This document shows, one piece after another, positions 1,518 to 62,319 of a stretch of 64,000 nt of DNA. The DNA is taken from NCBI GenBank assembly GCA_017403155.1, contig JAFQOP010000003.1, positions 2,504 to 66,503 on the forward strand, given 5' to 3'. This stretch comes from Clostridia bacterium. Lineage in GTDB: Bacteria > Bacillota > Clostridia > Oscillospirales > CAG-272. The notes under the pieces are model-generated. The model made no database searches. It was not told where the DNA came from and saw only the letters and a program-made list of their open reading frames with translations. Numbering within the stretch: position 1 is the stretch's first letter; every line of letters starts with the position of its first letter. The position numbers and the translations under genes were made by a program.

Positions 1518-1592
1518 GGCAGGGGCGGAAGGACTCGAACCCACGACCCATGGTTTTGGAGACCAGTACTCTACCAACTGAGCTACACCCCT
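1517..1592 (-). tRNA. trnW: tRNA-Trp (anticodon CCA), CCA end encoded
   Basis: The reverse complement folds as a cloverleaf: acceptor AGGGGTG/CGCCCCT, D-arm GCTC-AGTTGGTA-GAGT, anticodon arm CTGGT-CTCCAAA-ACCAT (CCA anticodon flanked by CT and AA), T-arm GTGGG-TTCGAGT-CCTTC, then discriminator G plus CCA. The T-stem has one T:T mismatch and one G:T pair. Confidence 0.85.
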
Positions 1593-2549: not shown

Positions 2550-2786
2550 GACAAAGGAATAAACGAGTGGTATTGCCCCATTGGGCATTGTCGGGGCGGG
2601 TATTGGCTCACCTCGGGGATAAGGAAAGTGCGGTGAAAATCCGCCACAACAGCCATTACCGTAAAAGTCGGAATGCTTATCACCTCTTGCACTAAAGGGA
2701 TTCTTCGGGCAAACGGAGGAGTCGGCGCGGCAGGGTGAAGACTGCCTATTTTCGCTTGGCACTCCGTGGAGGAGTGCTTTTATTTT
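2550..2786 (+). promoter_or_regulatory. candidate cobalamin (B12) riboswitch with terminator expression platform
   Basis: About 240-nt structured leader. It contains ggtgaaaatccgccacaacagcc (compare the conserved GGTGNNAAATCC...GCCAC core) and aagtcggaatgc (B12-box-like). It ends in hairpin gcactcc (2759-2765)/ggagtgc (2771-2777) plus a T-run. The downstream genes (DUF4430-type lipoprotein, small polytopic membrane protein) are classic B12-regulon members. Confidence 0.55.
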
Positions 2787-19475: not shown

Positions 19476-19504
19476 TTGAAATTGTCGGCAAAATATGCTA
19501 TAAT
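19476..19504 (+). promoter_or_regulatory. sigma-A type promoter of the protease/Opp operon
   Basis: TTGAAA 19476-19481, 17-nt spacer, TATAAT 19499-19504. This coincides with the track ORF start, which argues for the downstream ATG at 19560. Confidence 0.65.
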
Positions 19505-19559
19505 CTTCTACGCGTATTATATATTTATACGCGCAAAAACAGAAAGGCAAAACAGATCA

Positions 19560-44033: not shown

Positions 44034-44071
44034 GCATACGCGCATAATAAATTAATATTATGTTCATATTA

Positions 44072-44100
44072 TTGACTTTTACATCTGTGTGTGATATAAT
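44072..44100 (+). promoter_or_regulatory. sigma-A type promoter of the teichoic-acid-like cluster
   Basis: TTGACT 44072-44077, 17-nt spacer, TATAAT 44095-44100. The track start at 44060 lies upstream of it, so the start is moved to 44129. Confidence 0.7.
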
Positions 44101-44128
44101 CAATACGATACTTGATTTGGAGGATGTT

Positions 44129-46834
44129 ATGTCAAATCTTCAAACGGATATAAACAGCTTTAAATATAAGGTCTCCATTGTTTGCTCTGTTTATAACGTC
44201 GAGAGCTACATCCGCGAGGCAATTGACAGCATTATTGCGCAGTCAATAGGCTTCAGGGAAAACGTTCAGATCGTTATGGTTGACGATGGCTCTACCGATA
44301 GTAGCGGTGCCATATGTGATGAGTATGCTGCCGAGTACCCCGATAACATCGTCGTTCTTCACAAGGAGAACGAGGGGCTCTCAAGAGCGAGAAAGGACGG
44401 CATCCCTCTCACTGTCGGTAAGTACGTCACCTTCTTTGACCCCGACGATATACTTTCATCCGAGACCCTTGAGAATGTAGTAAGGTTCTTTGATAAGCAC
44501 TACGACCGGACCGACGTTGTCTCCGTTCCCATCTATATGTTTGGCGGCTATGAGGGTGCCCATCCTCTTAACGACAAGTTCGAGGAGGGCACGAGAGTGA
44601 TAAACCTTGCCGAGGAATGGCAGGTTGCGCAGATGAGCCTCGCCACCGCATACATAAAGCGCGAGGTGATTAATCTCATAGATGCGGATGAGCAGCTCGT
44701 TACCAGCGAGGATGCAAAGGAGCTTGTCAAGATACTGACCGAAAAGATGACCCTCGGTGTTGTCAGCGAGGCGAAATATCTTTATCGCCGCCGCGGTAAT
44801 TCCCAGGTTGGCAAATCCAGATCCAAGCCTGCCTGGTATCTGACGTATCTTGAGCATTACACCGAGTGGGCGATTGATTATTGCCGCGAAAAGCTCGGCT
44901 ATGTTCCAAATTTCATATATTACACGCTTATGTACGACCTCCAGTGGAGGTTTATGCCCGCAAGGATAGAGAATGACGAAATCAGCGAGGAGCAGAAGAG
45001 AGAATACGTCACAAAGCTCTTCTCGCTTGTCAACGGCTTCCCGTCCGAGGTGATCTTCTGTCAGAGACTCCTTCCCGTCTACCATAAGCTATATCTTGCG
45101 TACAGAAGCCACGGTGCCACCCCTCCCGAGGTAATAAAGGGAGAGGACGGTGTGCATTACTGCTTCGCATATAACGGCGAGTCCCTCCATCCCATCGACG
45201 GAGAGCTCTGCAGAATCCATTTTATAAGATTAAGTGAGAAGAATCTGACCGTCGAGGGCACCTTCACCAGACCTGCCGTCGGCATTGATTTTTCCGCGCT
45301 TTATGCATCTGTTGGCGGCGAGCGAGTTCCCATCAGATGGACGGGCTACGATGAGAGCACCCTTTCGGCAGGAGTTGAAATATGCACCTCGTCGGGCTTT
45401 GAGCTGAAGCTCCCCCTCTCCGAGCTGACAAGCCCGACAACCCTCTCCTTTGAGATTGATATAGCGGGCACGGTCATTCCTCTTGGCGCGCCCTGCTATG
45501 AGAAATTTGCTCCCCTGACCGGAGAGTGCGAGTATTCCTACTATGCAAAGGGAGGATATATGCTCACTCCCTCCGCGGAGGGCATGGTTATTGCACCCGC
45601 CACAAGGAAGGAGATAAAGCGACGCGACAGGCTCTTTACGCGCGCGCTCCTGAGAGGCGAGGGCAAGGCGTCGAAGAAGGCATTCGTCGCCAGAATTCTC
45701 TATAAAACAGCAAAAAGAATATACCCGAAGAATATCTGGCTCGTGATGGACAAGGCTGACCGCGCCGACGATAACGGCGAGGCATTCTTCACGTATCTTT
45801 GCAAGAATAAGGACAAGCTCGATTGCACCCCCATATTTGCTATCAGCAAGAGCTCGGTTGACTATAAGCGCCTTAAAAGGATCGGACACGTCGTCCCGTA
45901 TATGTCCTGGCGCCACAAGATATTGCATCTGATTGCAAAGCACACCGTGTCGGCATACAGCCACGATGAGATAAGCCGTCCGTTCCTTGAGAATACTAAA
46001 TTTTATGCCAACCTTATGCAGGATAACCAGGTTATCTTCCTTCAGCACGGCATAATAAAGGACGACCTCTCGAAGAGCTTAAATCGCCGTCACAAGAACT
46101 TCAGCATGTTCGTCACCTCGACGGTGCAGGAGCGCGATTCGGTCCTCCGCTGCAACTACGGCTACAACGAGGACGAGGTAGTCCTCACGGGTCTGCCGAG
46201 ATACGACGCGCTTTATAACGCCCCCGAGAAGAAGATAACGATAATGCCGACCTGGCTAAGAAAGCTGTTCGGCAGCTATGATGCCGCCAGCTCGACCTGG
46301 TCGCTTCTCGACGGATTTGAGGAGAGTGAATACTACCTGTTCTACAACTCTCTCATCAATTCCGACAGACTCCTCAGCGCAGCAGAGAAGTACGGCTACA
46401 CAATTCAGTTTATGCCGCACCCCGTCTTCTTCCCCTACATGGACCGCTTCACCACCGACGGTCGCGCGGTAATTCTCGACCCTGCGACAAGATACAGAGA
46501 CGTATTTGCGACAAGCTCGCTGATAACCACCGACTATTCCTCGGTTGCCTTCGACTTCGCATACCTTCGCAAGCCCCTCTTCTATACCCAGTTTGAGGAG
46601 AATCACTATGAAACGGGCTACTTTGATTATGAGCGCGACGGCTTCGGTGAGGTCGAGAAAACCCTGGAAGCGACCGTTGACAGAATGATAGAGTATATGC
46701 AAAACGACTGCCGTCTCAAGGACGAATACAGAGCGCGCATAGACTCCTTCTTCGCCTTCGCAGACAAAAACAACTGCCGGCGCGTCTATGAGAAGATTCT
46801 CGAGGTTGAGAAATTAAAGGACGACAGACGGTAG
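44129..46834 (+). CDS. bifunctional GT2 glycosyltransferase / CDP-glycerol glycerophosphotransferase (TagF-like)
   Basis: RBS ggagga. GT2 N-terminus VSIVCSVYNVESYI...VDDGSTD...DPDD. TagF-like C-terminus IWLVMDKADRADDNGEAFF, IMPTW, LITTDYSSVAFDFAYLRKP. Confidence 0.88.
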   Translation: MSNLQTDINSFKYKVSIVCSVYNVESYIREAIDSIIAQSIGFRENVQIVMVDDGSTDSSGAICDEYAAEYPDNIVVLHKENEGLSRARKDGIPLTVGKYVTFFDPDDILSSETLENVVRFFDKHYDRTDVVSVPIYMFGGYEGAHPLNDKFEEGTRVINLAEEWQVAQMSLATAYIKREVINLIDADEQLVTSEDAKELVKILTEKMTLGVVSEAKYLYRRRGNSQVGKSRSKPAWYLTYLEHYTEWAIDYCREKLGYVPNFIYYTLMYDLQWRFMPARIENDEISEEQKREYVTKLFSLVNGFPSEVIFCQRLLPVYHKLYLAYRSHGATPPEVIKGEDGVHYCFAYNGESLHPIDGELCRIHFIRLSEKNLTVEGTFTRPAVGIDFSALYASVGGERVPIRWTGYDESTLSAGVEICTSSGFELKLPLSELTSPTTLSFEIDIAGTVIPLGAPCYEKFAPLTGECEYSYYAKGGYMLTPSAEGMVIAPATRKEIKRRDRLFTRALLRGEGKASKKAFVARILYKTAKRIYPKNIWLVMDKADRADDNGEAFFTYLCKNKDKLDCTPIFAISKSSVDYKRLKRIGHVVPYMSWRHKILHLIAKHTVSAYSHDEISRPFLENTKFYANLMQDNQVIFLQHGIIKDDLSKSLNRRHKNFSMFVTSTVQERDSVLRCNYGYNEDEVVLTGLPRYDALYNAPEKKITIMPTWLRKLFGSYDAASSTWSLLDGFEESEYYLFYNSLINSDRLLSAAEKYGYTIQFMPHPVFFPYMDRFTTDGRAVILDPATRYRDVFATSSLITTDYSSVAFDFAYLRKPLFYTQFEENHYETGYFDYERDGFGEVEKTLEATVDRMIEYMQNDCRLKDEYRARIDSFFAFADKNNCRRVYEKILEVEKLKDDRR

Positions 46835-48466: not shown

Positions 48467-51172
48467 TTGGATAAGCCGATTCTCAGTAGCAAAGAGTACA
48501 AATACAAATTCACACTGATATGTGCGGTTTACAATGTAGAAAACTATATAGAGGAAACGCTTGAGAGCTTTATTTCGCAGGATATTGGCTTCATTGAGAA
48601 CGTCCAGGTAGTATTGGTTAACGACGGATCAAAGGACGGTAGCGGCGCTATATGCGATAAATATGCCCTAAGGTATCCCGATAATATAAAGGTCATTCAC
48701 AAGGCTAACGGCGGAGTTTCCTCTGCGAGAAATATTGGTCTGCAGAATATAGAGGGAAAGTATTATAACTTCTGTGATCCTGATGACCTTCTTACTCGCA
48801 ACACGCTATCATCTGTATGGAAATTCTTCGAGGAGCATGAGGACGAGATCGATATTGCAACTATCCCTATGCATTTCTTTGAGGCATATACAGGTGTACC
48901 GTACCATAACTCAAAGTTTGAAAAGGGAACGCGCGTTATAGATCTTATGGCAGAGCCATACGCGCCCCTGTTCAGCAGTTCCTCCTCATTTATCCATAGC
49001 AGAATGAAGGATAAGTTTACGTTTGATACAAGGCTGAAGTTTGCCGAGGACTCTAAGTACATCCAGCACATTCTCCTCGAGAAGCTTGCACTCGGTGTTG
49101 TTGCCGACTGCAAATATATGTATAGGAGACGTGTAGCAAACACCTCGGCAATAAATTCATCACAGAACAAGGACGAGTGGTATTTTGACACTCTTGAGCA
49201 CTCATTCTGGGATACTATGCAGTATGCCAAGGAGAAGTACGGATACATTCCTCAGTTCATCCAGCATACCTTCCTTTGTGATTTCAAATGGCGTCTGACG
49301 CAGGCAAGGGAGGACAATAAGTATATAGACAAGGATGAGGAAACCTACAATAAATATTTCGCTCTCCTGTCCAGATGCATAAACGAGATAGATGTAGACG
49401 TGGTGATGTCAAACCAGTTCTACAATGCTCAGCTGATGCTTCTTGTGCTGAAGGATATTCAAAAGCGAGATCTTACGATAAGAAATCTGCGCGGAGTGGA
49501 CTGCTATTTCTTCGGAAGAAAATGGCTTTTCGACCTTTCCAGACTCTTTGAGGCTGAATTTGATATTTTTGAGCCTAAGGGGGATCACGCCGATTTGTAT
49601 TTTTCCATCAGCGGTCCTTCCACAATTGAAAAATATGAGTTCTGCCTCGAGGTTAACGGGCAGAGATGCTTCGCATCACTTTTGAAGAGTGAGTCCGCCT
49701 ACAACCTTCATATCAATTCGGGCATAAAGAGGTATTACAAGGTATCAATTCCGCTAAAGGACAAGGAAAATTACTTCTCGCTTAAAATGTGCGATAAGGC
49801 TACCAACCGTCTGTCTATGGTTGAGGTTAACAAATTCGGCAGATTCTTCCCCCTCAACACGGTACCTACTTCGTATTTCTCCTTCGGTCGGTACGTTATG
49901 AGAAGGTCGGATAAGCAGGTGTTCCTGATTAAGAGGGCATCGAGAATACGTAAGCTGGCATATGAGCTGAAATATTGCCGCAGTCTGCTCAAGGTCAAGA
50001 ATCCAAAGGGCACCAAAATTATTGCATACAGATGGTTGTATTTTGTCGGCAGGCTCTTCTCATTTAAGAAGAAGTGGCTGCTTATGGATAGAATCAATAA
50101 GGCAGACGATAATGCAGAGGCGCTCTTTGATTATATGAATAAAAAGGGTCGCAGAAAGGCAAAGGCAAGATTTGCCGTTGCTGACGGAGGGGAGCTCAAG
50201 AGACTTAAAAAGAGGTATAGGGGTGTAATAAAATACAATACACGCCGCTTTTATCTTAACTATGTATTGAGTGACGTCATAATATCTTCCCACGTTGATG
50301 ACTTCATAATGAGACCCCTTTTGTGGAAACAGGTCTATATCAAGGATATATCTGCGAAGAAGAAATTCGTATTCCTTCAGCACGGTGTAACACAGAACGA
50401 TATTTCGAATTATCTCAACAAGTTCAGCAAAAATATATATGGCATTACCGTAGTGTCCGATATAGAGAGGGAGAACATTTCCCGGACGGAATATATGTAT
50501 GAAGATTCCAACATCTGGCTGAGTGGCTTTGCTCGCTTTGACCGCTTGTATGATGCAACCGAGAAGGTTGTAACAATCATGCCTACCTGGCGCAGCTATC
50601 TTGCGGCAGGTATGGATAACGAGACCGGAATTTGGAAGCTGTACGATGATTTTAAGGATTCGTCGTTCTATACCTTCTACAATAATCTGCTGAATGATGA
50701 GCGGCTGATAGAGGCAGCACAGAGGAGCGGATATAGTCTGCAGTTTATGCCACATCCGATACTTGCTCCGCATATCGATCTGTTTGATAAGAACGAGAAC
50801 GTCGAATTCCTCGACCCACTGACCTCTTACCGCGAAATTTACGCGCGAAGCGCGCTGGTTCTTACCGACTATTCCTCGGCAGTATTTGACTTCGCATACC
50901 TGCGTAAGCCCGTTCTTTATACGCAGTTTGACCGAGAGGAAATGCAAAAGCGTGCCAACACCTATTCGTTGAACGTCGATTTCTATGATAAATACGCATT
51001 CGGAGAGATTGCGTTCGACTATGACACTACCGTAGACCTCCTTATTGAGTATATGGAGAACGGCTGTCGTGTTAAGGACGAATATCGTAAAAAAATTGAT
51101 GATTTCTTTGCATACAACGATAACAATAACTGTGCTCGTATAGTAGAGAGGATCGTCAAGTCGCGCGATTAA
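48467..51172 (+). CDS. second bifunctional GT2 / CDP-glycerol glycerophosphotransferase (paralog, visibly lower GC)
   Basis: TTG start after aaggag. Same architecture as 44129-46834 (FTLICAVYNVENYI...VNDGSKD...DPDD; WLLMDRINKADDNAEALF; IMPTW; VLTDYSSAVFDFAYLRKP). Confidence 0.85.
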   Translation: MDKPILSSKEYKYKFTLICAVYNVENYIEETLESFISQDIGFIENVQVVLVNDGSKDGSGAICDKYALRYPDNIKVIHKANGGVSSARNIGLQNIEGKYYNFCDPDDLLTRNTLSSVWKFFEEHEDEIDIATIPMHFFEAYTGVPYHNSKFEKGTRVIDLMAEPYAPLFSSSSSFIHSRMKDKFTFDTRLKFAEDSKYIQHILLEKLALGVVADCKYMYRRRVANTSAINSSQNKDEWYFDTLEHSFWDTMQYAKEKYGYIPQFIQHTFLCDFKWRLTQAREDNKYIDKDEETYNKYFALLSRCINEIDVDVVMSNQFYNAQLMLLVLKDIQKRDLTIRNLRGVDCYFFGRKWLFDLSRLFEAEFDIFEPKGDHADLYFSISGPSTIEKYEFCLEVNGQRCFASLLKSESAYNLHINSGIKRYYKVSIPLKDKENYFSLKMCDKATNRLSMVEVNKFGRFFPLNTVPTSYFSFGRYVMRRSDKQVFLIKRASRIRKLAYELKYCRSLLKVKNPKGTKIIAYRWLYFVGRLFSFKKKWLLMDRINKADDNAEALFDYMNKKGRRKAKARFAVADGGELKRLKKRYRGVIKYNTRRFYLNYVLSDVIISSHVDDFIMRPLLWKQVYIKDISAKKKFVFLQHGVTQNDISNYLNKFSKNIYGITVVSDIERENISRTEYMYEDSNIWLSGFARFDRLYDATEKVVTIMPTWRSYLAAGMDNETGIWKLYDDFKDSSFYTFYNNLLNDERLIEAAQRSGYSLQFMPHPILAPHIDLFDKNENVEFLDPLTSYREIYARSALVLTDYSSAVFDFAYLRKPVLYTQFDREEMQKRANTYSLNVDFYDKYAFGEIAFDYDTTVDLLIEYMENGCRVKDEYRKKIDDFFAYNDNNNCARIVERIVKSRD

Positions 51173-54196: not shown

Positions 54197-54913
54197 TTAG
54201 CAATCCAGCGGTACAGTGCGTATTTCCGCCTCGCTGTTTATCCTGCCGTCGGAGCGGAAGGTGCGAAAATAGTATCTGCCCTCGCTCTCACCGCGCAGAA
54301 CCGTGAGCACGTCGCCGGCGGGAGCCTCGTTCCGGTAATTTATCGTTATCTCCTCAATTCTTCTTCCCTCGAGGTCGAGGAAGTTGGAGTACATATCGGG
54401 ATATTTCGTATTGTTCATGTGTCTGTTCTGGTCTACCGAGTCATAGGTAACCTCATATTTGCCGACAAGAGTCATTGACTCGGGCATCACTATTCTCGAT
54501 ATGGGGTAGTCGAGAGGGTCAAAGGTCGTAAGCCCGAGCTCAAAGTCATTCACCTTGACAAGTGCGTGCGTGTCGGTGTCTATGAGTGCCCACACGGATG
54601 CCGCCCGACCGACAATTCCTCCGTCCCGTAGTAGCTCATAGCAGCGCAGAAAGCTGTATCCGCGGCTATGGCAGGGAAAGCTTATGCCAACAAGACGCTC
54701 ATACGCGTGTATATCCTCTGTGAATTCCATCCTTATCCTCGAGAGGACAAAGGCGCGCTTCTTGTCCTTGAGGCTGTCGTAGGACATGCCCCCCTCGGTG
54801 AGCTGCGACTGTGCTGTCGATTGAATAAGGCGCATAAGCGCGCTCGTCCTTGCAACGCCGTTGAAGTCGACGTCGTGGATATCAACCTCGAATTCCTTCT
54901 TATAGTATTCCAT
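54197..54913 (-). CDS. acyl-ACP thioesterase
   Basis: Double hot-dog family pattern (EVDIHDVDFNGVARTSALMRLIQ..., second half VDQNRHMNNTKY). Start moved to the second ATG (54913), 9 nt after GGAG; the first ATG directly abuts the SD. Confidence 0.8.
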   Translation of the reverse strand: MEYYKKEFEVDIHDVDFNGVARTSALMRLIQSTAQSQLTEGGMSYDSLKDKKRAFVLSRIRMEFTEDIHAYERLVGISFPCHSRGYSFLRCYELLRDGGIVGRAASVWALIDTDTHALVKVNDFELGLTTFDPLDYPISRIVMPESMTLVGKYEVTYDSVDQNRHMNNTKYPDMYSNFLDLEGRRIEEITINYRNEAPAGDVLTVLRGESEGRYYFRTFRSDGRINSEAEIRTVPLDC

Positions 54914-54996
54914 AGCATACATCTCCTTTTACCGACTATATTTTACCCCTCATGCAAGGAATTTTCAAGTAAAAAATGTAAATAATTAAAATATAC

Positions 54997-55048: not shown

Positions 55049-55360
55049 ATGATACAGCTTACAAAGGATAATTTTAAGAGCGAGGTGGAGGAGCACGACG
55101 GTCTTGTCGTCATCGACCTCTATGCCGATTGGTGCGGTCCGTGCAAGATGCTTGCCCCCACCGTTGAGGCTCTCGAGCGCGAGATGCCCGACGTCAAGTT
55201 TGCCAAGGTGAACGTGGACAGTGAGATGGAGATAGCAAAGATGTTTAAGGTGACGAGCATACCCATGATTGCACTCGTGCGCGACAACACCTTCCTCGAT
55301 ATGTCCGTCGGCTATGTCCCGAAGCAAACACTCGAGAATCTCATAAACGAATACAGATAA
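55049..55360 (+). CDS. trxA: thioredoxin
   Basis: 103 aa. WCGPC active site. RBS aaggagg. Confidence 0.93.
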   Translation: MIQLTKDNFKSEVEEHDGLVVIDLYADWCGPCKMLAPTVEALEREMPDVKFAKVNVDSEMEIAKMFKVTSIPMIALVRDNTFLDMSVGYVPKQTLENLINEYR

Positions 55361-55385
55361 TAAATCGCAGGAAATACCCACCACA

Positions 55386-55417
55386 GAGCCCGAAGCATCA
55401 CGCTTCGGGCTTTTTCG
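55386..55417 (+). terminator. rho-independent terminator
   Basis: agcccgaagc pairs with gcttcgggct, followed by T5. Confidence 0.8.
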
Positions 55418-55514
55418 TGCCACCCGCGTCACATTTTGCTATATTTAAACCTTGCATACTTATCATCTCGGGGATAGAATTTACGTAATACGCTTTATCT
55501 TTCGGGAGATTGAA

Positions 55515-58500
55515 ATGAGAAGACTGCTAAAAACTGTAATTTTCCTCGCCCTCGCTACCTTATCGCTGCTTTTTGCAATGCCTGTCAGTGCCGCGGAGGC
55601 GGCAGGCGAGCCCTGCCGCATATATTCCGATGGTGGAGAGTACGTGCTCGTGTGCGGCGATGGCGAGATGCGCTCGGACAGCCTCACCTCGCTTTTTGCC
55701 GAGGTGCCGCAGGGCTCCACCGTCACCCTCGACGGGCTCTCGAGCGACGGGAGCATACTTATAAGCCACCCCTCCCTCACGCTGACGGGTAGCCTCGCGC
55801 TGACGGGCGGAGCCACACTTACTCTTGACGGAGGAAATCTGACTTTTCGCGCCGTCACTCTCACCTCCGAGGGGCAGGCTGTCAGAATAAAGCGCGGCAC
55901 ACTTACCCTTGAGAGTGGCAGCATCACAGCGCGCGGCGCATCTGTTGTCCTCGATTTCGCCGCATCTGCCGAGTATATACAGACGGGCGGCGCCATCACC
56001 TCGACAGAGGGGGTTGCTCTCTCGGTCTGGCAGGGCAGTGCCACGGTGAGAGGAGGCAGGATTTGCTCTCTTAGCGACCTTGCGGTGGTCTCCTCCTCCA
56101 CTCTGACCCTTGTCGGTGCGCCCGAGCTTGTCGGTGCCTCCTACGATATTGCCCTTTCCTCTCCCGCTACCCTTTATGAGGGAAATGCTGTCTTTCGCGG
56201 CTCTGCCCGCACAAAGCTGCTCTACGGGGTAGAGCGCGGACGCGTCAAGGCAGCCTTTTATACAGAGAGTGCCGATTCTCTTTCGGGCATATCCCTCTAC
56301 TCCACCCTCGGAGAGCAGCTGACGCTCAGATACCTTGAGGCAGGAGAGTACGGGTGCGACGAGGGGACGGGCGCAGTATGGCTGCCGTTTTTTGTCACCT
56401 TTGTTCGTGAGGGAGGGGGAGAGACGGTCGTTGAATGCATGTCCTCCGATACCGTCACACCCCCAACACCTCCCTCGGTGAGTGGCTATGCCCACACGGG
56501 CTGGTGCTACTCGGACGGAGAGAGCTTTGACGTCGGTGCGTCGGTGCAGGGGGACGTAACGGTCTATGCAACCTACTCCCTCCTGCCACCCACCTTCAGA
56601 ATGCGCGGCGAGGGCTTTGCCTTCGACGGTGAGGAGAGGTATATCTCCATCTCCGATATCACTCACCCTCTCCTTGAGTCGGGCTATCTCTCCTTCGAGT
56701 GGTACAAGGACGGTGCCCCCCTCTCCTCCTACACGCAAACTCACCCCATAAGATACGCTTCGGACAGCGGAATATATGAGGCAAGGATAACCTTCACCGT
56801 CGGAACAGATACCGTAACGGTAAGCACACCGAGCGTTGATATAAGAATAACGAAGAGGGTTGTCAATATCCCGAAAATACCCTCGAAATTTTACACGGGG
56901 CAGCACCAGAGCCCCGAAATAGCCGAAAACGGCATATATACGGCAGCCCCCGTCACGGGCAGGGAGGTTGGCATATATCCCGTCCGCCTCACCCTTATCG
57001 ACCCTGCCAACAATTCTTTTTTTGGCACCTTGGAGGCGCACGCGTATTCCGACTTTGAGATAAAGAGGGCAGAAAACAGCTGGACAGAGTCTCTTGCCAT
57101 CTCCGATTTTTATACGGGAGGTGCGCCGATTCCCACCGCCCGTGCTGCCTTCGGTGAGGTTAGATATCTCTATGCATCGGCGGCGGACGGGCTCTTCTCC
57201 TCCTCGCCTCCGACAGAGGCAGGGGAGTATCTTGTGCGCGCCTTCGTCGACGGCACGGAAAACTATACCTCTCTTGAGAGTGAGACGGTAGCGTTTAAGG
57301 TAATCCTCGAAGTGCCACTCGCCATCTCTGTGAAGATACCGCCGACAAGAGAGAGCTATACCGCCTTTGAGAGGATAGACCCCGAGGGGATTTGTGTTGA
57401 GGTTGTATATAACAGCAAAAGGTGTGCCCTTCTTTATTCGGATAGCCTCACCTTCTCCTATCAGACGTCGGGGGCAGACTCGCTCCGCTACGGAGACAGC
57501 GGTGTCACCGTCAGCTATATGGGTGCGTCGGTTATGCTCCCGCTCTCTGTCGGTCGAGCAGAGTACGACATTTCCTCCGTCGTCTTCTCCGACCTGACTC
57601 TTACCTTTGACGGTGAGCCGAAAACTATACCCCAGCCTACGGGGCTGCCCGTTGGACTTGACGGCATACCTCTGTGCGCCACAGTGTCGGGTGGCGGCAC
57701 CGATGCGGCAGATTATACCGTGATACTCACCTTTTACAGCGAGAGCCGAAATTACACCCTCCCCGAGCCGATAAGCGCCACCCTCACCGTCCTGCCGAGA
57801 GAGTGCGAGGTCGTGTGGGGAGCGAGAGAATTCGTATACGACGGAGGGGAGAAGCTGCCGAGTGCCTTCTATACCGATATATACGGCAGGCGTATCGACC
57901 TCTCGGTTGAGGGGAGGCATAGCCTGGCAGGCACCTATACCGCCACAGTCCGCAGTGAAAATCCAAACTACACTCTGAAAAATCCAACGGCAGAATATAC
58001 GGTACTGAAGGCGGACTATGACCTCTCGGGCGCTGTGTGGGTGGGTGGAGAATTCGTCTATAACGGCTCTTCTCACTCGGTCACCCTCACAGGGCTACCC
58101 GACGGGGTCGGTGTAATAGGCTACCTGAATGCGGATGCCACACTGGCAGGCAGCTACGTTGCGAGCGCCACCCTCTCCTACGACGCGCGCAACTACAATC
58201 CGCCGACGGTGCCCGACTTTGCGTGGCAGGTTTGCCGCGCAGAATACCCGAGCGGCGGCTATCACTTTGCCGACCTTGCCGTCACCTACGACGGGGGCGT
58301 GCATTATCCCACCCTTGTCGGTGAGATGCCCTGTGGGCTTGACGGCTCGGTGCCTAGCTATACCTTCTCGCGCGGTGTTTGCCACGTCGCAGAGGGGAGA
58401 GCGGCGGTCACCGTAGTCTTCTCCACCGACAGCCGTAACTACAATCCACCCCCGAGCCTCGTTGCCTTTGTAACGGTATCTGCTATGGAGATAAGTGTCG

Positions 58501-60401
58501 AGTGGGGGAATAGTGAGTTCGTTTACTGTGCCGCTTACACAGTGCCGAGCGCAGTGAGCGAATATACCTCCGTAACGGTTACGGGCGGCGGTGTTGATGC
58601 AGGGGATTATATCGCCCGCGCCACCTCGGATAACCCCGATTATCTCGTCACAAACTGCGAGCTCCCCTTCAGCATATTGAGGGCAGAAAACGCATGGACG
58701 GCAGAGCCCTCCGTTTCCGACGTCTTCTACGGCAGGCTACCCTCGCCCGAGGGCGCGTGCATCGCAGGTGCGCTTGTTCCTGCCTATTATTCAGCCGCGT
58801 CGGGAGAGCCGCTTGCCGAAATACCAAGGGCGGTGGGGGAGTATATCCTCGTCCTCTCGAGCGAGGGAGATAGAAATTATCTGCCTATATCGTCAGAGCC
58901 TCTTCGCTTCTCTGTAATCGCGGTGGTTCCCGTTTCGGTAAGCGCCTCCCTCACGGGCACGCCGCTTGTCGCTATGTCCTCTCTCGGCGAGGAGGATATC
59001 ACGGTTCTCCTCCATTATAATGACGGCACGAGCTCCCCGGTGCCGCACAGACTTGCCGAAATACAGTACCAGAGTGGGGAGAGCCTTCGCCACTCGGACA
59101 CCGAGCTCACCGTTTCCTATCTTGGCTTTGCCGTCACCCTTCCCATAAGCGTCGGTCGCGCAGATTACGATATGAGCCACGTGCGCTGGGAGAACACCCT
59201 GCTTGTCTTTGACGGGAGCGAGAGGGTGGCGTATCTCTCGGGGCTTCCCGAGGGTGTCACGGTCAGAGAATATATTTCCTGCTCTGCCACCGCGGCAGGC
59301 AGGTATCCCCTTGCGGCAACCGTCGATTACGACCGCGAGAATTACAATCCGCCAAAAATCCCGAGCGGAGTTATGATTATCGAGAGGTGCATAGTGCCTC
59401 TTCCGATTATAGAGTCGGTTGTCTATGACGGAGAGTGGCACCTGCCCGAGGTGCCCGAGAGTGCCCTGTATACAGCCTCCTTTGCTGATGGGGTGAGAGC
59501 GGCAGGGCACTATCCCGTCAGGCTCACCCTCGCCGACGGAGCAAACTATGCCTTCCCGACGGGTGCGGCAAGTGCCTCGGTTGACTTCGTTGTAGCTCGC
59601 CGCCCCATAACGGTGAGGGTAGCGGACGTTCGTCTTTGCCTCTTTGAGGAGGATTACGTCCCCTCGTTTGTAATAACCGAGGGCACCCTTGTCGGCTCCG
59701 ACACCCTCACTCCCACCTACACCGAGCGAGACGGACGGATATACGCCCGCTTCGACAGCCCCTCTTATGATATAACCGTTATCGCAGGCACCCTCGAGCA
59801 TACGCGCTCGCTGTCCCCGAGAGCTCTCGGTATCATAATCTTCTCGCTTCTTTTGCTGCTTCTCGTCCTCTTAATCGTCTATCTTCTCCTGCGCCACAGA
59901 GCATACGCATACTATTCCGTGCGCTCCCGTCTTTTCGGAGCCACAGCCGAGCTTGCCGACCCCACGCCTCCCCCGCCTCCGACGGAAGAGGAGAAAAAGG
60001 AGGACACCGATGCGGACGCGGTGAGCGAGGTCGCGGCTATCAGCGTCGAGTATGCTGACGGAGCTATCTCCGACTCGCTTGCCAAGGATCTCATAAGACG
60101 GGACGAGGTGATAGTCACCGAAGGGCGTCGGCGCGGAATAATAAACGTTGATACCCTCTCGCGCGCCTTCTCGGCAGGGGATAGGGTAGACGTCAATATC
60201 CTGAAGCGAAGGAGCCTTATCCCGTATGACACCGCATATATCAAGGTGCTCGCCCGCGGTATAATCGACAAGCCGCTTGAGGTATATGCAAACGACTTCA
60301 GCCTCTCGGCGGTAAAGATGATAGCCCTCTCGGGTGGCAAGGCTATCCGCGTCGGCACTATGTTGGCACCGCGGACGGAGAAAAATAAAGAAAAGCCTTG
60401 A
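55515..60401 (+). CDS. giant surface protein (1628 aa): beta-helix-like N-terminus, InlB B-repeat, multiple MBG-type and Ig-like repeats, TM helix, cytoplasmic uL15-like tail
   Basis: ATG at 55515 gives signal peptide MRRLLKTVIFLALATLSLLFAMPVSA-AE. Repeated ...NPNYTLKNPTAEYTVLKA-type modules. TM helix LGIIIFSLLLLLLVLLIVYLLL (about 59826-59891). Tail GIINVDTLSRAFSAGDRVDVNILKRRSLIPYDTAYIKVLARGIIDKPLEVYANDFSLSAVKMIALSGGKAIRV. Confidence 0.88.
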   Translation: MRRLLKTVIFLALATLSLLFAMPVSAAEAAGEPCRIYSDGGEYVLVCGDGEMRSDSLTSLFAEVPQGSTVTLDGLSSDGSILISHPSLTLTGSLALTGGATLTLDGGNLTFRAVTLTSEGQAVRIKRGTLTLESGSITARGASVVLDFAASAEYIQTGGAITSTEGVALSVWQGSATVRGGRICSLSDLAVVSSSTLTLVGAPELVGASYDIALSSPATLYEGNAVFRGSARTKLLYGVERGRVKAAFYTESADSLSGISLYSTLGEQLTLRYLEAGEYGCDEGTGAVWLPFFVTFVREGGGETVVECMSSDTVTPPTPPSVSGYAHTGWCYSDGESFDVGASVQGDVTVYATYSLLPPTFRMRGEGFAFDGEERYISISDITHPLLESGYLSFEWYKDGAPLSSYTQTHPIRYASDSGIYEARITFTVGTDTVTVSTPSVDIRITKRVVNIPKIPSKFYTGQHQSPEIAENGIYTAAPVTGREVGIYPVRLTLIDPANNSFFGTLEAHAYSDFEIKRAENSWTESLAISDFYTGGAPIPTARAAFGEVRYLYASAADGLFSSSPPTEAGEYLVRAFVDGTENYTSLESETVAFKVILEVPLAISVKIPPTRESYTAFERIDPEGICVEVVYNSKRCALLYSDSLTFSYQTSGADSLRYGDSGVTVSYMGASVMLPLSVGRAEYDISSVVFSDLTLTFDGEPKTIPQPTGLPVGLDGIPLCATVSGGGTDAADYTVILTFYSESRNYTLPEPISATLTVLPRECEVVWGAREFVYDGGEKLPSAFYTDIYGRRIDLSVEGRHSLAGTYTATVRSENPNYTLKNPTAEYTVLKADYDLSGAVWVGGEFVYNGSSHSVTLTGLPDGVGVIGYLNADATLAGSYVASATLSYDARNYNPPTVPDFAWQVCRAEYPSGGYHFADLAVTYDGGVHYPTLVGEMPCGLDGSVPSYTFSRGVCHVAEGRAAVTVVFSTDSRNYNPPPSLVAFVTVSAMEISVEWGNSEFVYCAAYTVPSAVSEYTSVTVTGGGVDAGDYIARATSDNPDYLVTNCELPFSILRAENAWTAEPSVSDVFYGRLPSPEGACIAGALVPAYYSAASGEPLAEIPRAVGEYILVLSSEGDRNYLPISSEPLRFSVIAVVPVSVSASLTGTPLVAMSSLGEEDITVLLHYNDGTSSPVPHRLAEIQYQSGESLRHSDTELTVSYLGFAVTLPISVGRADYDMSHVRWENTLLVFDGSERVAYLSGLPEGVTVREYISCSATAAGRYPLAATVDYDRENYNPPKIPSGVMIIERCIVPLPIIESVVYDGEWHLPEVPESALYTASFADGVRAAGHYPVRLTLADGANYAFPTGAASASVDFVVARRPITVRVADVRLCLFEEDYVPSFVITEGTLVGSDTLTPTYTERDGRIYARFDSPSYDITVIAGTLEHTRSLSPRALGIIIFSLLLLLLVLLIVYLLLRHRAYAYYSVRSRLFGATAELADPTPPPPPTEEEKKEDTDADAVSEVAAISVEYADGAISDSLAKDLIRRDEVIVTEGRRRGIINVDTLSRAFSAGDRVDVNILKRRSLIPYDTAYIKVLARGIIDKPLEVYANDFSLSAVKMIALSGGKAIRVGTMLAPRTEKNKEKP

Positions 60402-60445: not shown

Positions 60446-60480
60446 GCCGCAGTCGTCTCTTTGCCGACTGCGGCTTTTTA
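60446..60480 (+). terminator. rho-independent terminator
   Basis: gccgcagtcg pairs with cgactgcggc, followed by T5. Confidence 0.8.
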
Positions 60481-60495
60481 AAAGGGATTTTTGAA

Positions 60496-62319
60496 ATGCA
60501 GATAATCTACAAGGATAAGGATATCGTATTTATAAACAAGGCGGCAGGTATGCCCAGCCAGCCCGACCCGACGGGCGACACGGATGCTATGAGCGCTACG
60601 TCAGCGGAGCTTTCCGCGTGCGGCGAGAGGGATGCGCTCTGGCTCGTCCATAGGCTTGACCGCGTTGTCGGTGGAGTAATGGTCTTTGCCAGAAGCAAGG
60701 AATATGCCGCGCGCCTCAGCGCCCTAATCTCGGATAAAACGGCAAGGAAGGAATATCTTGCCGTAGTCGAGGGGCGTGCCGAGGGCGGTGCTCTCACCGA
60801 CCTGATATACAAGGATGCGAGGGCGGCAAAGGCGTTTGTCGTTGACCGCAAGCGCTCAGGGGTAAAGGAGGCGCGGCTCGAGTATATCCCCCTTGAGTGC
60901 GTAAGGACGGATAGGGGAGAATATACCCTCGTCCGTGTCAGACTCGATACGGGCAGATACCATCAGATACGCGTGCAGCTCTCTCACAGAGGAATGCCCA
61001 TAGTAGGTGACGGTAAGTACGGCAGTCACGACAACCGCGCCCACCTGCCAGCGCTATTTTCAACTCGGCTCTCCATCCCCCTCGGCAAGAGGGCGGCGGG
61101 GTGCAGTGTCCTTCCCGACCTTGAGAGCTATCCGTGGTCGCTCTTCTCAAAAGAGGCATATGAAAAGGAGTTTATAATGACTGAAAAGCTGTATTATAAG
61201 GATGCATATATAAAGGAGTTCGACGCGAGGGTAATCTCCGTAAGGAGCAAGTCGGATGAGTACGTAGTCGTCCTCGACAGGACTGCCTTCTTCCCCGAGG
61301 CGGGAGGACAGTATGCCGACAACGGCACGATTGGCGGCATTGCAGTTGCCGACGTGCGTGAGTGCGATGGAGTGATATATCATCACCTTCCCGTGCCTGT
61401 TGAGGTCGGTGCCACCGTACACTGCGTTATCGACTTTGAGGAAAGGTATGAAAAGATGCGCGTGCATACCGCCGAGCATATACTATCGGGTCTTTTTCAC
61501 ACGCACTACGGTCTTGACAACGTCGGATTTCACCTCGGAGCCGAGGATGTAACAATGGATATCAGCGCACCTCTGGGCTACGACGAGCTTATGAGGATTG
61601 AGGAGCTTGCCAACCGCGCCGTGCTCGATAACCTTGAGGTTACCGCCTTCTTTCCCACACCCGAAGAGCTCCCGACGCTCACCTATCGCTCGAAGCTCGA
61701 GCTTACCAAGGATGTAAGAATAGTGAAAATCGGAGACGTCGACTCCTGCGCCTGCTGTGCGCCCCACGTCGGGAGGACGAGTGAGGTCGGCAGCATCAAG
61801 ATTATCGACTTTGAGAAGCTGCGCGGCGGACTTCGCATACATATCGCCGCAGGCGAGAGAGCCCTCCGCTATTACAGAGGAATGTACGAAAATCTTACAA
61901 AAATCTCTCGCGCCCTCTCCGCCCCCAAGCTAGAGTGCGCGGCGGCAGTGGAGCGCACCCTGTCCGAGCTCGAGAGCTGGCGTGCCGCATATAAGAGGGC
62001 GAGGGTCAGCTACTTTGAGAGGGAGGCTACCCTTATACATCCTGCCCCCAAGAACCTCGTTCTCGACTACCCCGACGCAACCTATGAGGAGCTTCGCGTG
62101 CTGGCAAACCTCGCCCGCGACAGAGTCGAGGGTATGCTCGTCCTCCTTTCGGGCACAGAAGGTGACTACAATTACGTAATAACCTCAAATAGCATAGATA
62201 TGAGAGGCGAGATTAAAAAAATAAACACCGCCCTTTTTGGTGTGGGCGGTGGTAATTCGCTTATGGTGCAGGGTGGCTTCTCTGCCAAGCTCGAGGAAAT
62301 AAAGAAATACTTTATTTGA
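60496..62319 (+). CDS. single ORF joining an RluA-family pseudouridine synthase (aa 1-227) in frame to an AlaX-L type alanyl-tRNA editing protein (aa 228-607)
   Basis: N-terminal part has HRLDRVVGG (catalytic Asp) and YHQIRVQL. From the internal ATG at 61177 (preceded by aaaaggag): MTEKLYYKDAYIKEFDA..., the HTAEHILSG zinc motif, CCAPHV, and a DHHA1-like C-terminus GGGNSLMVQGG. There is no in-frame stop between the parts. Confidence 0.85.
   Translation: MQIIYKDKDIVFINKAAGMPSQPDPTGDTDAMSATSAELSACGERDALWLVHRLDRVVGGVMVFARSKEYAARLSALISDKTARKEYLAVVEGRAEGGALTDLIYKDARAAKAFVVDRKRSGVKEARLEYIPLECVRTDRGEYTLVRVRLDTGRYHQIRVQLSHRGMPIVGDGKYGSHDNRAHLPALFSTRLSIPLGKRAAGCSVLPDLESYPWSLFSKEAYEKEFIMTEKLYYKDAYIKEFDARVISVRSKSDEYVVVLDRTAFFPEAGGQYADNGTIGGIAVADVRECDGVIYHHLPVPVEVGATVHCVIDFEERYEKMRVHTAEHILSGLFHTHYGLDNVGFHLGAEDVTMDISAPLGYDELMRIEELANRAVLDNLEVTAFFPTPEELPTLTYRSKLELTKDVRIVKIGDVDSCACCAPHVGRTSEVGSIKIIDFEKLRGGLRIHIAAGERALRYYRGMYENLTKISRALSAPKLECAAAVERTLSELESWRAAYKRARVSYFEREATLIHPAPKNLVLDYPDATYEELRVLANLARDRVEGMLVLLSGTEGDYNYVITSNSIDMRGEIKKINTALFGVGGGNSLMVQGGFSAKLEEIKKYFI

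What the first reader, a model, noticed from the sequence alone, without database searches (positions are those of the whole stretch)
59826..60401. Giant surface protein ends in a transmembrane helix followed by a cytoplasmic domain resembling the C-terminal half of ribosomal protein uL15
The TM helix is LGIIIFSLLLLLLVLLIVYLLL, followed by a Pro-rich/acidic linker (PTPPPPPTEEEKKEDTDAD).

The tail then reads GIINVDTLSRAFSAGDRVDVNILKRRSLIPYDTAYIKVLARGIIDKPLEVYANDFSLSAVKMIALSGGKAIRV. By eye it aligns position for position with E. coli RplO ...[68 protein letters not shown].

A ribosomal-protein-like fold on the cytoplasmic side of a 1600-aa adhesin-like protein is unexpected. It could tether the protein's own translation or secretion, bind RNA, or simply be a reused fold (speculation).
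Basis: partly seen in the sequence, partly recalled or inferred. Interest (0 to 1): 0.6.

Follow-up and report, generated by a model that had tools for sequence, protein, structure and literature searches.

The report
Membrane-tethered copy of ribosomal uL15 domain
A 1628-residue cell-surface protein of an uncultured gut Clostridium ends, on the cytoplasmic side of the membrane, in a strongly conserved copy of the globular half of ribosomal protein uL15; this domain defines a large, undescribed family that databases mislabel as "ribosomal protein", and its job is unknown.

Summary
ORF 55515-60401 (+) is identical to NCBI MBQ4070905.1. It encodes signal peptide, 1411-aa repeat ectodomain, one TM helix, acidic/Pro-rich linker, and a C-terminal module matching Pfam PF00828 (E 5e-12). 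Its AlphaFold model (pLDDT 95) superposes on uL15 C-domains at 1.1-1.9 A.

It is not rplO. It scores 26-31 bits on TIGR01071 (cutoff 78; a genuine uL15 control scores 188), lacks the N-terminal extension, and lies outside the spc operon.

The fusion is not a one-off. At least 333 species-level genomes and about 760-1700 protein clusters carry the module. In 77 of 81 genome loci examined the gene sits in the same syntenic slot.

The uL15-like domain is the best-conserved part: 70% identity against 28-40% for the ectodomain. Some orthologues lack the ectodomain, and one lacks the TM helix.

Other subfamilies pair the module with N-terminal TM anchors, or are soluble and lie beside rpsL.

The function is unresolved. 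My best inference is a flexibly tethered cytoplasmic docking head, possibly for ribosome or RNA. Reuse of the fold for something unrelated to the ribosome is about equally likely. I found no literature describing the family.

The parts
55382..55419 (+). Intrinsic terminator of the upstream thioredoxin gene (55049-55360)
   Evidence: Hairpin GAGCCCGAAGC/GCTTCGGGCTC followed by a T-run; -22.3 kcal/mol, z -7.0, 0 of 200 shuffles fold as well.
55417..55445 (+). Promoter-like site (GTGCCA-17-TATATT with TG) upstream of the gene
   Evidence: Consensus scan only; not evidence of function.
55504..55508 (+). Shine-Dalgarno GGGAG, 6 nt before the ATG
   Evidence: Read directly from the sequence. It supports the ATG at 55515, the same start as NCBI MBQ4070905.1, over the TTG at 55452.
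55515..60401 (+). Complete CDS, 1628 aa plus stop
   Evidence: ORF list. Exact match to MBQ4070905.1, 'uL15 family ribosomal protein [Clostridia bacterium]'.
55515..55592 (+). Signal peptide (aa 1-26; predicted cleavage after VSA)
   Evidence: Basic n-region MRRLLK, 15-aa hydrophobic core, AXA-type site. 68 of 71 complete orthologues have the same kind of N-terminus.
55593..59825 (+). Extracellular domain (aa 27-1437): N-terminal beta-solenoid plus B-repeat, then Ig/MBG-like repeats
   Evidence: AF2 of aa 27-400: pLDDT 94.9, all-beta. Foldseek best local match is the InlB B-repeat, rmsd 1.9-2.0 A, TMt 0.76-0.80. Pfam Flg_new E 1.8e-5; MBG_3 and Ig_2 weak. Internal repeats between aa ~380 and 1360. 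28-40% identity to orthologues.
59826..59891 (+). Transmembrane helix (aa 1438-1459)
   Evidence: 22 hydrophobic residues. A TM is found at the equivalent place in 70 of 71 orthologues, and no LPXTG motif in 0 of 70.
59892..60035 (+). Juxtamembrane basic cluster (RHRAYAYYSVRSR), then an acidic/Pro-rich linker that looks disordered (aa 1460-1507)
   Evidence: Sequence. In orthologues the linker has mean net charge -8 and is E/A/P/D/S-rich. The TM-to-domain distance is 68-250 aa, and linker identity is only 14%.
60036..60134 (+). N-terminal extension of the module (aa 1508-1540): two short helices and a strand, motif AD..ISDSLAK.LI; absent from uL15
   Evidence: AF2 secondary structure H5-11, H14-20, E22-29 at pLDDT above 94. 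hhalign aligns only module residues 33-105 to uL15. 45% identity among orthologues.
60135..60353 (+). uL15 C-terminal-domain homologue (aa 1541-1613)
   Evidence: PF00828 at aa 1542-1610. PDB sequence and fold matches to uL15. 70% mean identity among 40 orthologues, the highest of any region.
60354..60398 (+). Short basic C-terminal tail (GTMLAPRTEKNKEKP)
   Evidence: Sequence. Family tails average net charge +2.4 and about 9 aa; their sequence is not conserved.
60446..60479 (+). Intrinsic terminator after the gene
   Evidence: 10-bp GC-rich stem followed by TTTTT; -20.8 kcal/mol, z -4.7. The gene therefore looks monocistronic.
60496..62319 (+). Syntenic downstream neighbour: RluA-family pseudouridine synthase fused to an AlaX-like domain
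   Evidence: Pfam PseudoU_synth_2, tRNA-synt_2c and tRNA_SAD. Downstream of the module gene in 77 of 81 genome loci examined.
54197..54922 (-). Syntenic upstream neighbour: acyl-ACP thioesterase
   Evidence: Conserved upstream in most loci.

Best explanation
**Shown.** The gene encodes a type I membrane protein: signal peptide, large repeat ectodomain, one TM helix. Its cytoplasmic C-terminus is an autonomous, divergent paralogue of the globular C-terminal domain of uL15. A 32-residue helical/strand cap extends this domain at its N-terminus, and a short basic tail follows it. It is not the ribosomal protein. The module is the conserved core of a large family in gut Bacillota. In that family it is almost always C-terminal, predicted to be cytoplasmic, and joined to a membrane anchor by a long, acidic, variable linker that looks disordered.

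**Inferred.** The module acts as a flexibly tethered docking head that captures a conserved cytoplasmic partner at the membrane. The partner is most likely rRNA, the large ribosomal subunit, or a factor that recognises the uL15 surface. This would couple the membrane, and in this lineage a giant surface protein, to the translation machinery.
For: **Identity**
- PF00828: E 5e-12.
- hhalign against a genuine uL15: probability 98.2%.
- Fold match: rmsd 1.1-1.9 A.

**Not rplO**
- TIGR01071: 26-31 bits against a 78-bit cutoff, versus 188 bits for the control uL15.
- Only the C-terminal half of the model is covered.
- The gene is not in the spc operon.

**The module is the functional core**
- 70% identity for the uL15-like domain, against 28-40% for the ectodomain, 22% for the TM and 14% for the linker.
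- Syntenic orthologues exist with no ectodomain (P0077, 215 aa) and with no TM (P0067).

**Tethered-head geometry**
- Acidic linkers place the domain 68-250 aa from the TM.
- The same layout occurs with N-terminal TM anchors in another subfamily: 37 of 49 complete genes.

**Breadth**
- At least 333 species genomes.
- 763 clusters at E<=1e-30.

**Hints of a link to translation**
- A soluble Bacilli subfamily lies directly upstream of rpsL-rpsG-fusA-tuf.
- One member lies after obg-yhbY.
- rplI is upstream in 3 loci.
- An RluA-family pseudouridine synthase and AlaX are downstream in the Clostridia clade.
- The uL15 sequence motifs (KVL..G, FS..A, GG) are retained.
Against: - No direct evidence of ribosome or RNA binding.
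- On mature 50S subunits the uL15 site is occupied by genuine uL15, and the module lacks the N-terminal extension that threads into rRNA.
- The module core is on average near neutral (net +0.6, range -6 to +10).
- Neighbourhoods of the divergent subfamily are not conserved: the largest recurrent neighbour family covers 6 of 65 loci. The translation-gene contexts may therefore be coincidence or shared ancestry.
- In the window the gene is flanked by terminators and is not co-transcribed with the RluA-AlaX gene.
- The extra N-terminal cap could occlude the ancestral RNA-binding face.
Confidence: 0.4

Rival explanations
1. The fold has been reused for something unrelated to the ribosome. The uL15-like domain is a cytoplasmic protein-protein interaction or self-association domain. 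It would organise, cluster or anchor membrane and surface proteins, for example by linking giant surface fibrils to a cytoplasmic or membrane-associated partner. Its ribosomal ancestry would then be only historical.
For: - The module is fused to a giant surface protein in this clade.
- In another subfamily it is encoded 0-13 bp downstream of a separate giant surface protein that ends in a TM helix (L131, L144, L148, L163). This is a Rosetta-stone-type association with surface proteins rather than with translation genes.
- The module has a family-specific N-terminal cap and family-specific invariant residues: the R of KVLARG, DKPL, and the K and M of VKMI.
- The core is near neutral in charge.
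- There is no conserved operon link to translation genes in the divergent subfamily.
Against: - Orthologues without any ectodomain or TM keep the module, so its role does not depend on a surface protein.
- A soluble subfamily sits next to the str operon.
- No candidate protein partner emerges from the gene neighbourhoods.
Confidence: 0.38
2. The protein signals by regulated proteolysis. Events at the ectodomain (adhesion, force, shedding) trigger cleavage within or near the membrane, which releases the module into the cytoplasm as a soluble effector. The effector could, for example, modulate translation or ribosome assembly.
For: - Naturally soluble versions of the module exist (P0067; Bacilli subfamily), so the module can plausibly act untethered.
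- The layout of a single-pass membrane protein with a large ectodomain and a conserved cytoplasmic head resembles proteins that signal by regulated intramembrane proteolysis. This is general knowledge, not tested here.
Against: - No protease gene is conserved next to the gene.
- I identified no cleavage motif.
- The only fusion to a DNA-binding domain (P0012) is most likely a chimeric 1.2x-coverage contig.
- Orthologues with a minimal ectodomain would have nothing to sense.
Confidence: 0.1
3. The tail is a passive element. Any folded cytoplasmic domain after the last TM helix would ensure co-translational stop-transfer insertion and keep the giant ectodomain anchored.
For: The module always follows the membrane anchor, and the protein has no sortase (LPXTG) motif (0 of 70 orthologues), so the TM helix is the only anchor.
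Against: - A passive plug would not be the most conserved part of the protein: 70% identity against 14% for the linker.
- It would not persist in orthologues lacking the ectodomain or the TM.
- It would not recur in soluble proteins.
Confidence: 0.07
4. The database label is right: this is a functional ribosomal protein uL15, an unusually extended rplO.
For: NCBI and JGI name family members 'uL15 family ribosomal protein', 'L15' or 'L18E'.
Against: - TIGR01071: 26-31 bits against a 78-bit cutoff, versus 188 bits for a genuine uL15.
- The N-terminal half of uL15 is absent.
- The protein is 1628 aa with a signal peptide and a TM helix.
- The gene is not in an spc operon. The canonical arrangement is seen in L093.
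Confidence: 0.02

Closest known systems
Bacterial ribosomal protein uL15 (rplO), C-terminal globular domain (Pfam PF00828; uL15/eL18 fold)
   Same: Homologous sequence: 36-41% identity to Firmicutes and Clostridia uL15 over about 70 residues. Same fold, rmsd 1.1-1.9 A. The KVL..G, FS..A and GG motifs are retained.
   Different: - It lacks the Gly/Lys-rich N-terminal half that enters the rRNA core.
- It has its own 32-aa N-terminal cap and a basic tail.
- It sits at the cytoplasmic end of a 1628-aa membrane protein.
- The gene is not in the spc operon.
- It scores far below the rplO equivalog cutoff.
Extra-ribosomal paralogues of ribosomal proteins in Firmicutes, such as the L7Ae-family protein YbxF/RplGB encoded upstream of rpsL in B. 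subtilis, and the bL31/bL36 paralogues (own knowledge; bL31 paralogues as in PMC10931766)
   Same: It is a duplicated ribosomal-protein domain kept alongside the genuine ribosomal protein. The soluble Bacilli subfamily even occupies the position immediately upstream of rpsL.
   Different: Those paralogues are small soluble proteins that bind to, or substitute on, the ribosome. This one is a half-protein, usually tethered to the membrane. No uL15 paralogue or extraribosomal role for uL15 is listed in the 2024 review.
Mitochondrial Mba1/mL45-type membrane ribosome receptors (own knowledge; analogy only)
   Same: The concept is the same: a relative of a ribosomal protein attached to a membrane, which could hold ribosomes at the membrane.
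   Different: There is no sequence or fold relationship, the organisms are different, and ribosome binding by the present module has not been shown.
Gram-positive surface proteins with Listeria-Bacteroides (Flg_new / InlB B-repeat), MBG and Ig-like repeats
   Same: Signal peptide. B-repeat fold match to InlB (rmsd 1.9-2.0 A, TMt 0.76-0.80). Repeated Ig/MBG-like modules.
   Different: It is anchored by a TM helix, not by LPXTG/sortase, GW or other wall-binding modules. It also carries a conserved folded cytoplasmic domain, which such proteins normally lack.

Membership tests
Bacterial uL15 / rplO (NCBIfam TIGR01071 equivalog) | Whole-protein score at or above the curated cutoff (77.95 bits) | tested here: not met
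   26.5 bits for the full protein and 31 bits for the tail. Other family members score 28-41 bits. The genuine uL15 control from L093 scores 188 bits.
Bacterial uL15 / rplO (NCBIfam TIGR01071 equivalog) | Gly/Lys-rich N-terminal extension (model positions about 1-70) | tested here: not met
   Matches cover only model positions 74-142 and uL15 residues 73-145. The preceding sequence is an acidic/Pro-rich linker.
Bacterial uL15 / rplO (NCBIfam TIGR01071 equivalog) | Gene located in the spc operon, before secY | tested here: not met
   The neighbours are a thioesterase and thioredoxin upstream, and RluA-AlaX downstream. The canonical rplF-rplR-rpsE-rplO-secY-adk order is seen in the control locus L093.
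Bacterial uL15 / rplO (NCBIfam TIGR01071 equivalog) | Stoichiometric component of the 50S subunit | not testable with these tools
   This needs ribosome purification and proteomics, or cryo-EM.
Pfam PF00828 Ribosomal_L27A domain (uL15/eL18 fold) | HMM score above the gathering threshold (21.5 bits) | tested here: met
   40.5-46.4 bits, E 3.7e-10 to 5.4e-12, profile positions 1-71 of 72. All 89 first-round homologues carry PF00828.
Pfam PF00828 Ribosomal_L27A domain (uL15/eL18 fold) | Three-dimensional fold of the uL15 C-terminal domain | tested here: met
   AF2 pLDDT 95.2. The top 40 or so Foldseek PDB hits are all uL15 or eL18, rmsd 1.1-1.9 A over 71-76 columns.
Sortase-anchored (LPXTG) Gram-positive surface proteins | LPXTG-type sorting motif just before the C-terminal hydrophobic segment, followed by a short basic tail | tested here: not met
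   There is no LPXTG-like motif within 40 aa of the TM helix in the window protein or in any of 70 orthologues. About 170 aa, including a folded domain, follow the TM helix.
Listeria-Bacteroides repeat (Flg_new, PF09479) surface proteins | Flg_new / B-repeat domain | tested here: inconclusive
   The Pfam score is 25.2 bits, just under the 27-bit cutoff (E 1.8e-5, aa 294-352). The structure model matches the InlB B-repeat 2y5p at rmsd 1.9-2.0 A, TMt 0.76-0.80.
Membrane ribosome receptors derived from ribosomal proteins (Mba1/mL45 type) | Direct binding of the large ribosomal subunit at the membrane | not testable with these tools
   This is an analogy only, and no binding data exist.

The most novel reading that the evidence does not exclude
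Gut Bacillota carry a previously unrecognised class of membrane-tethered (and sometimes soluble) uL15 half-paralogues. These bind the large ribosomal subunit, an assembly intermediate or rRNA, and so act as a bacterial membrane receptor or organiser for ribosomes. In this lineage the receptor is physically fused to a giant surface protein. It would be the first extra-ribosomal use of the uL15/eL18 fold.
Probability: 0.25. Interest if true: 0.85.

Novelty: new variant of a known kind. Interest (0 to 1): 0.6.

Why it matters
- **Fold.** To my knowledge the uL15/eL18 fold has been seen only inside ribosomes. A 2024 review of extraribosomal functions lists none for uL15.
- **What is new.** Here the globular half of uL15 has been duplicated, capped and turned into an autonomous cytoplasmic module. 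It is the best-conserved part of a family found in hundreds of uncultured gut Clostridia and Bacilli species.
- **If it still binds ribosomes or rRNA.** It would be a new way for bacteria to place translation or ribosome assembly at the membrane, next to giant surface proteins.
- **If it does not.** It would be a clean example of a ribosomal fold taking on a new role.
- **Practical consequence.** Hundreds of database entries named "uL15 family ribosomal protein", "L15" or "L18E" are misleading. They can inflate ribosomal-protein marker counts in analyses of metagenome-assembled genomes.

Tried and rejected
1. **HTH_XRE-module fusion (P0012) as evidence for a regulatory role: rejected.** It sits at the end of a 1.2x-coverage, 2.2-kb contig in the usual syntenic slot, so it is probably chimeric.
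2. **Stand-alone "module-only" proteins (P0039, P0027): rejected.** They lie in the same syntenic slot, downstream of an uncalled 5-kb gap or a split 1589-aa ORF. They are gene-calling or frameshift artefacts.
3. **A general operon link to translation or ribosome-biogenesis genes: not supported.** Across 65 loci of a divergent subfamily, no neighbour family recurs in more than 6 loci. In the window, terminators flank the gene. Individual suggestive contexts remain.
4. **Mobile-element origin: not supported.** Plasmid and phage searches found only genuine rplO genes. One is in a misclassified "Bacteriophage sp." record. The viral structure library gave no match.
5. **Further copies of the module, or an rplO, in the window: none**.
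6. **RNA leader or riboswitch near the gene: none** at Rfam gathering thresholds.
7. **Fold searches against AFDB: library unavailable**.
8. **Structure of the unknown mid-domain of the divergent subfamily: not obtained.** The mid-domain also has no Pfam or PDB sequence match.
9. **Literature: nothing found.** Searches for uL15 paralogues, "uL15 family ribosomal protein", PF00828 and extraribosomal/membrane-anchored ribosomal-protein paralogues found no description of the family. One query was malformed.
10. **Naming organisms for divergent members: no names or cultured hosts recovered**.
Full report
**1. The observation**

It contains:
- a 22-residue hydrophobic helix, LGIIIFSLLLLLLVLLIVYLLL;
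- a basic juxtamembrane stretch, RHRAYAYYSVRSR;
- a Pro-rich/acidic linker;
- a roughly 120-residue tail.

It is the 3' end of one ORF, 55515-60401, 1628 aa from the ATG. A GGGAG Shine-Dalgarno sits 6 nt upstream of that ATG. The protein is identical to NCBI MBQ4070905.1, "MAG: uL15 family ribosomal protein [Clostridia bacterium]", recorded on a 170-kb contig.

**2. Is the uL15 resemblance real?**

Yes, by every test I ran.

| Test | Result |
|---|---|
| Pfam PF00828 (Ribosomal_L27A) on the tail | E 5.4e-12, 46.4 bits vs 21.5-bit cutoff, profile positions 1-71 of 72 |
| phmmer against PDB sequences | best hits all uL15 (Listeria, Enterococcus, Bacillus, Staphylococcus), E to 3.6e-6, uL15 residues 73-143 |
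| Family profile vs a genuine Clostridia-type uL15 (hhalign) | probability 98.2%, E 3.6e-14, 38% identity over uL15 residues 73-145 |
| Pairwise BLASTP vs that uL15 | E 1e-12, 41% identity |
| AlphaFold2 model of aa 1507-1628 (37-sequence alignment) | pLDDT 95.2, pTM 0.85 |
| Foldseek of that model against PDB | only uL15/eL18 chains at the top; rmsd 1.1-1.9 A over 71-76 columns; 32-37% identity |

The genuine uL15 used for comparison comes from L093. That locus is an spc operon inside a record mislabelled "Bacteriophage sp.".

The first ~32 residues of the module are an addition with no counterpart in uL15. They form two short helices and a strand and carry the motif AD..ISDSLAK.LI.

**3. It is not the ribosomal protein**

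- On the rplO equivalog model TIGR01071 the protein scores 26-31 bits against a cutoff of 78, and only model positions 74-142 are matched.
- The genuine uL15 control scores 188 bits over positions 1-143. Other family members score 28-41 bits.
- The window holds no rplO and no second copy of the module.
- The gene's neighbours are not spc-operon genes.
- I could not check that a normal rplO exists elsewhere in this genome. Its presence is an expectation from general knowledge, not a result.

**4. Topology and the rest of the protein**

- The N-terminus, MRRLLKTVIFLALATLSLLFAMPVSA|AEA, is a classical signal peptide.
- There is one TM helix near the C-terminus, followed by a cluster of Arg residues.
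- There is no LPXTG motif.
- Among orthologues, 68 of 71 complete ORFs have a signal-peptide-like N-terminus.
- K+R averages 4.0 in the 15 residues after the TM helix against 2.4 before it, and 53 of 70 orthologues have more after than before.
- None of 70 orthologues has an LPXTG-like motif.
- The tail is therefore predicted to be cytoplasmic.
- The ectodomain is of the surface-protein type. AF2 of aa 27-400 gives a confident all-beta model (pLDDT 94.9).
- The best structural match of that model is the B-repeat of Listeria internalin B (2y5p, rmsd 1.9-2.0 A, TMt 0.76-0.80). This agrees with a near-threshold Flg_new hit.
- Residues ~380-1360 consist of internally repeated Ig/MBG-like units.
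- "Adhesin-like" remains an inference.

**5. The transcription unit**

Strong hairpin-plus-T-run terminators flank the gene. One lies after the upstream thioredoxin gene (55382-55419, -22.3 kcal/mol, z -7.0). The other lies after the gene's own stop codon (60446-60479, -20.8 kcal/mol, z -4.7). A promoter-like site lies at 55417-55445. The gene looks monocistronic.

**6. A large conserved family, with the module as its core**

- A search with the tail found 89 relatives, all carrying PF00828. Sources label them "uL15 family ribosomal protein", "L15" or "L18E".
- An exhaustive profile search of 1.84 billion representatives found 763 clusters at E<=1e-30 and 1672 at E<=1e-10. Most of the full-length hits listed are about 1600-1800 aa, with the module at the extreme C-terminus.
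- A scan of one genome per species found 333 genomes. All of the best 80 are uncultured gut "Clostridia", "Eubacteriales", "Oscillospiraceae" or "Ruminococcus sp." metagenome-assembled genomes, from ruminants and humans.
- In 77 of 81 genome loci examined the gene sits in the same slot: acyl-ACP thioesterase, thioredoxin, [this gene], RluA-family pseudouridine synthase, AlaX-like, dCMP deaminase, radical SAM. ORF length ranges from about 680 to 1830 aa.
- Across 40 full-length orthologues, identity to the window protein varies sharply by region:

| Region | Mean identity to the window protein |
|---|---|
| uL15-like domain | 70% |
| N-terminal cap of the module | 45% |
| Ectodomain | 28-40% |
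| TM helix | 22% |
| Linker | 14% |

- In the same syntenic slot, one genome encodes only a 215-aa protein: 27 aa, a TM helix, a linker and the module (P0077).
- Another genome encodes a 314-aa protein with no TM helix at all (P0067).
- The module is therefore the constant element, and the ectodomain is a variable, expandable accessory.

**7. Other architectures**

- Two-TM and four-TM proteins that end in the module.
- A very prevalent soluble subfamily in uncultured Bacilli. These proteins are 191-275 aa, with a basic N-terminus, a charged repeat linker that varies in 12-residue steps, and then the module. Their gene lies directly upstream of rpsL-rpsG-fusA-tuf.
- A widespread gut subfamily (at least 425 metagenome loci) with an N-terminal TM helix, a PE-rich acidic linker, an unknown mid-domain of about 180 aa, a second linker and the module.
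- In four loci of that subfamily (L131, L144, L148, L163), a separate giant surface protein ending in a TM helix and a short basic tail (KRRKGRSN/KRRKGRNN, or KKRKAQ in L131) is encoded 0-13 bp upstream. This is a split version of the fusion seen in the window.
- Every architecture that can be oriented places the module in the cytoplasm.

**8. What does it do?**

Nothing here shows function directly.

The geometry suggests a tethered docking module for a conserved cytoplasmic partner. A highly conserved globular head sits at the end of a long, acidic, poorly conserved linker, 68-250 aa from the membrane.

Several points argue for a ribosome or RNA partner:
- the ancestry of the domain;
- the retained uL15 motifs;
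- several translation-linked contexts: the str operon, obg-yhbY, rplI and RluA/AlaX.

Several points argue against it:
- the uL15 site on mature ribosomes is already occupied;
- the module lacks the rRNA-penetrating extension;
- the module core is on average near neutral;
- the neighbourhoods of the divergent subfamily are not conserved;
- terminators insulate the window gene from its neighbours.

The fusion and adjacency to giant surface proteins argue for a role tied to those proteins. Orthologues without an ectodomain show that the module also works without one.

My estimates are:

| Explanation | Probability |
|---|---|
| Tethered docking head for the ribosome, rRNA or a uL15-recognising factor | about 0.4 |
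| Ribosome-unrelated reuse of the fold | about 0.38 |
| Effector released by proteolysis | about 0.1 |
| Passive plug | about 0.07 |
| Genuine ribosomal protein | about 0.02 |

**9. Novelty**

I found no paper describing this family or any extraribosomal uL15 paralogue. A 2024 review of extraribosomal functions mentions uL15 only as a gene of the spc operon. Automated pipelines have noticed the domain but name these proteins as ribosomal proteins, which is misleading. I rate it a new variant of a known kind: a ribosomal-protein paralogue or domain recruited outside the ribosome. The fold has not previously been seen in that role.

**10. Caveats**

- All members come from metagenome assemblies, and no cultured host was identified.
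- The genome counts come from pattern-seeded scans and are lower bounds.
- TM helices and signal peptides were called with simple hydropathy rules, not a dedicated predictor.

Noticed in passing
window 60496-62319 (+): The downstream neighbour is a single 607-aa ORF that fuses an RluA-family pseudouridine synthase (aa 10-164) to an AlaX-like tRNA-editing domain (aa 243-447). In relatives (L081, L090, L091, L094) these are two separate genes, adjacent or overlapping by a few bases.
   Followed up: partly
L086-L089 (gene at L086:8001-8576); proteins P0251, P0257, P0272-P0382: A very prevalent soluble uL15-like protein of uncultured Bacilli (NCBI label 'uL15m family ribosomal protein'). It is encoded directly upstream of rpsL-rpsG-fusA-tuf. 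Length variants (191, 203, 215, 227, 251, 263 and 275 aa) come from 12-residue steps in a charged EEKRLAEEKARE-like repeat.
   Followed up: partly
L096-L175, e.g. L144:4431-5843; P0259, P0243: A widespread gut subfamily carries an unknown, conserved mid-domain of about 180 aa (Y.RSF.AKLIQ ... GK.L..Y.ALDP ... KY) between an N-terminal TM helix and the uL15-like module. The mid-domain has no Pfam or PDB sequence match.
   Followed up: partly
L131:3-6164, L144:1-5843, L148:1-8876, L163:1-8888: A giant surface protein (1474 to more than 2486 aa, C-terminal TM helix plus a short basic tail) is followed after 0-13 bp by the TM-linker-mid-domain-module gene. This is a split counterpart of the fused protein in the window.
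   Followed up: partly
L093 (GenBank MT835508.1, 3607-11810): A record deposited as 'UNVERIFIED: Bacteriophage sp.' contains a bacterial spc operon (rplF, rplR, rpsE, rplO, secY, adk). This is bacterial DNA, or a chimera, in the phage collection. I used its rplO as the genuine uL15 control.
   Followed up: yes
window 19476-26867 (+) and 9101-13981 (+): The window holds two more giant ORFs. One is a 2463-aa subtilase (Peptidase_S8 with PA and Fn3-like domains) carrying eight BspA-type LRR stretches. The other is a 1626-aa protein with an AhpC/TSA-redoxin domain near its N-terminus. Neither carries the uL15-like tail.
   Followed up: partly
window 2619-2680 (+) and 1520-1592 (-): An AdoCbl-II (cobalamin) riboswitch aptamer (39.6 bits, gathering score 36.5) and a tRNA gene.
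   Followed up: no
window 44060-46834 (+) and 48467-51172 (+): Two paralogous proteins of about 900 aa combine a GT2 glycosyltransferase with a CDP-glycerol glycerophosphotransferase (TagF-like) domain. This points to teichoic-acid-type polymer synthesis and a Gram-positive envelope.
   Followed up: no
L176 (P0012); L090 (P0039); L091 (P0027): Database proteins that look like unusual architectures are probably artefacts: a chimeric 1.2x-coverage contig end (HTH-module), and split or uncalled giant ORFs in the usual syntenic slot (module-only proteins).
   Followed up: yes
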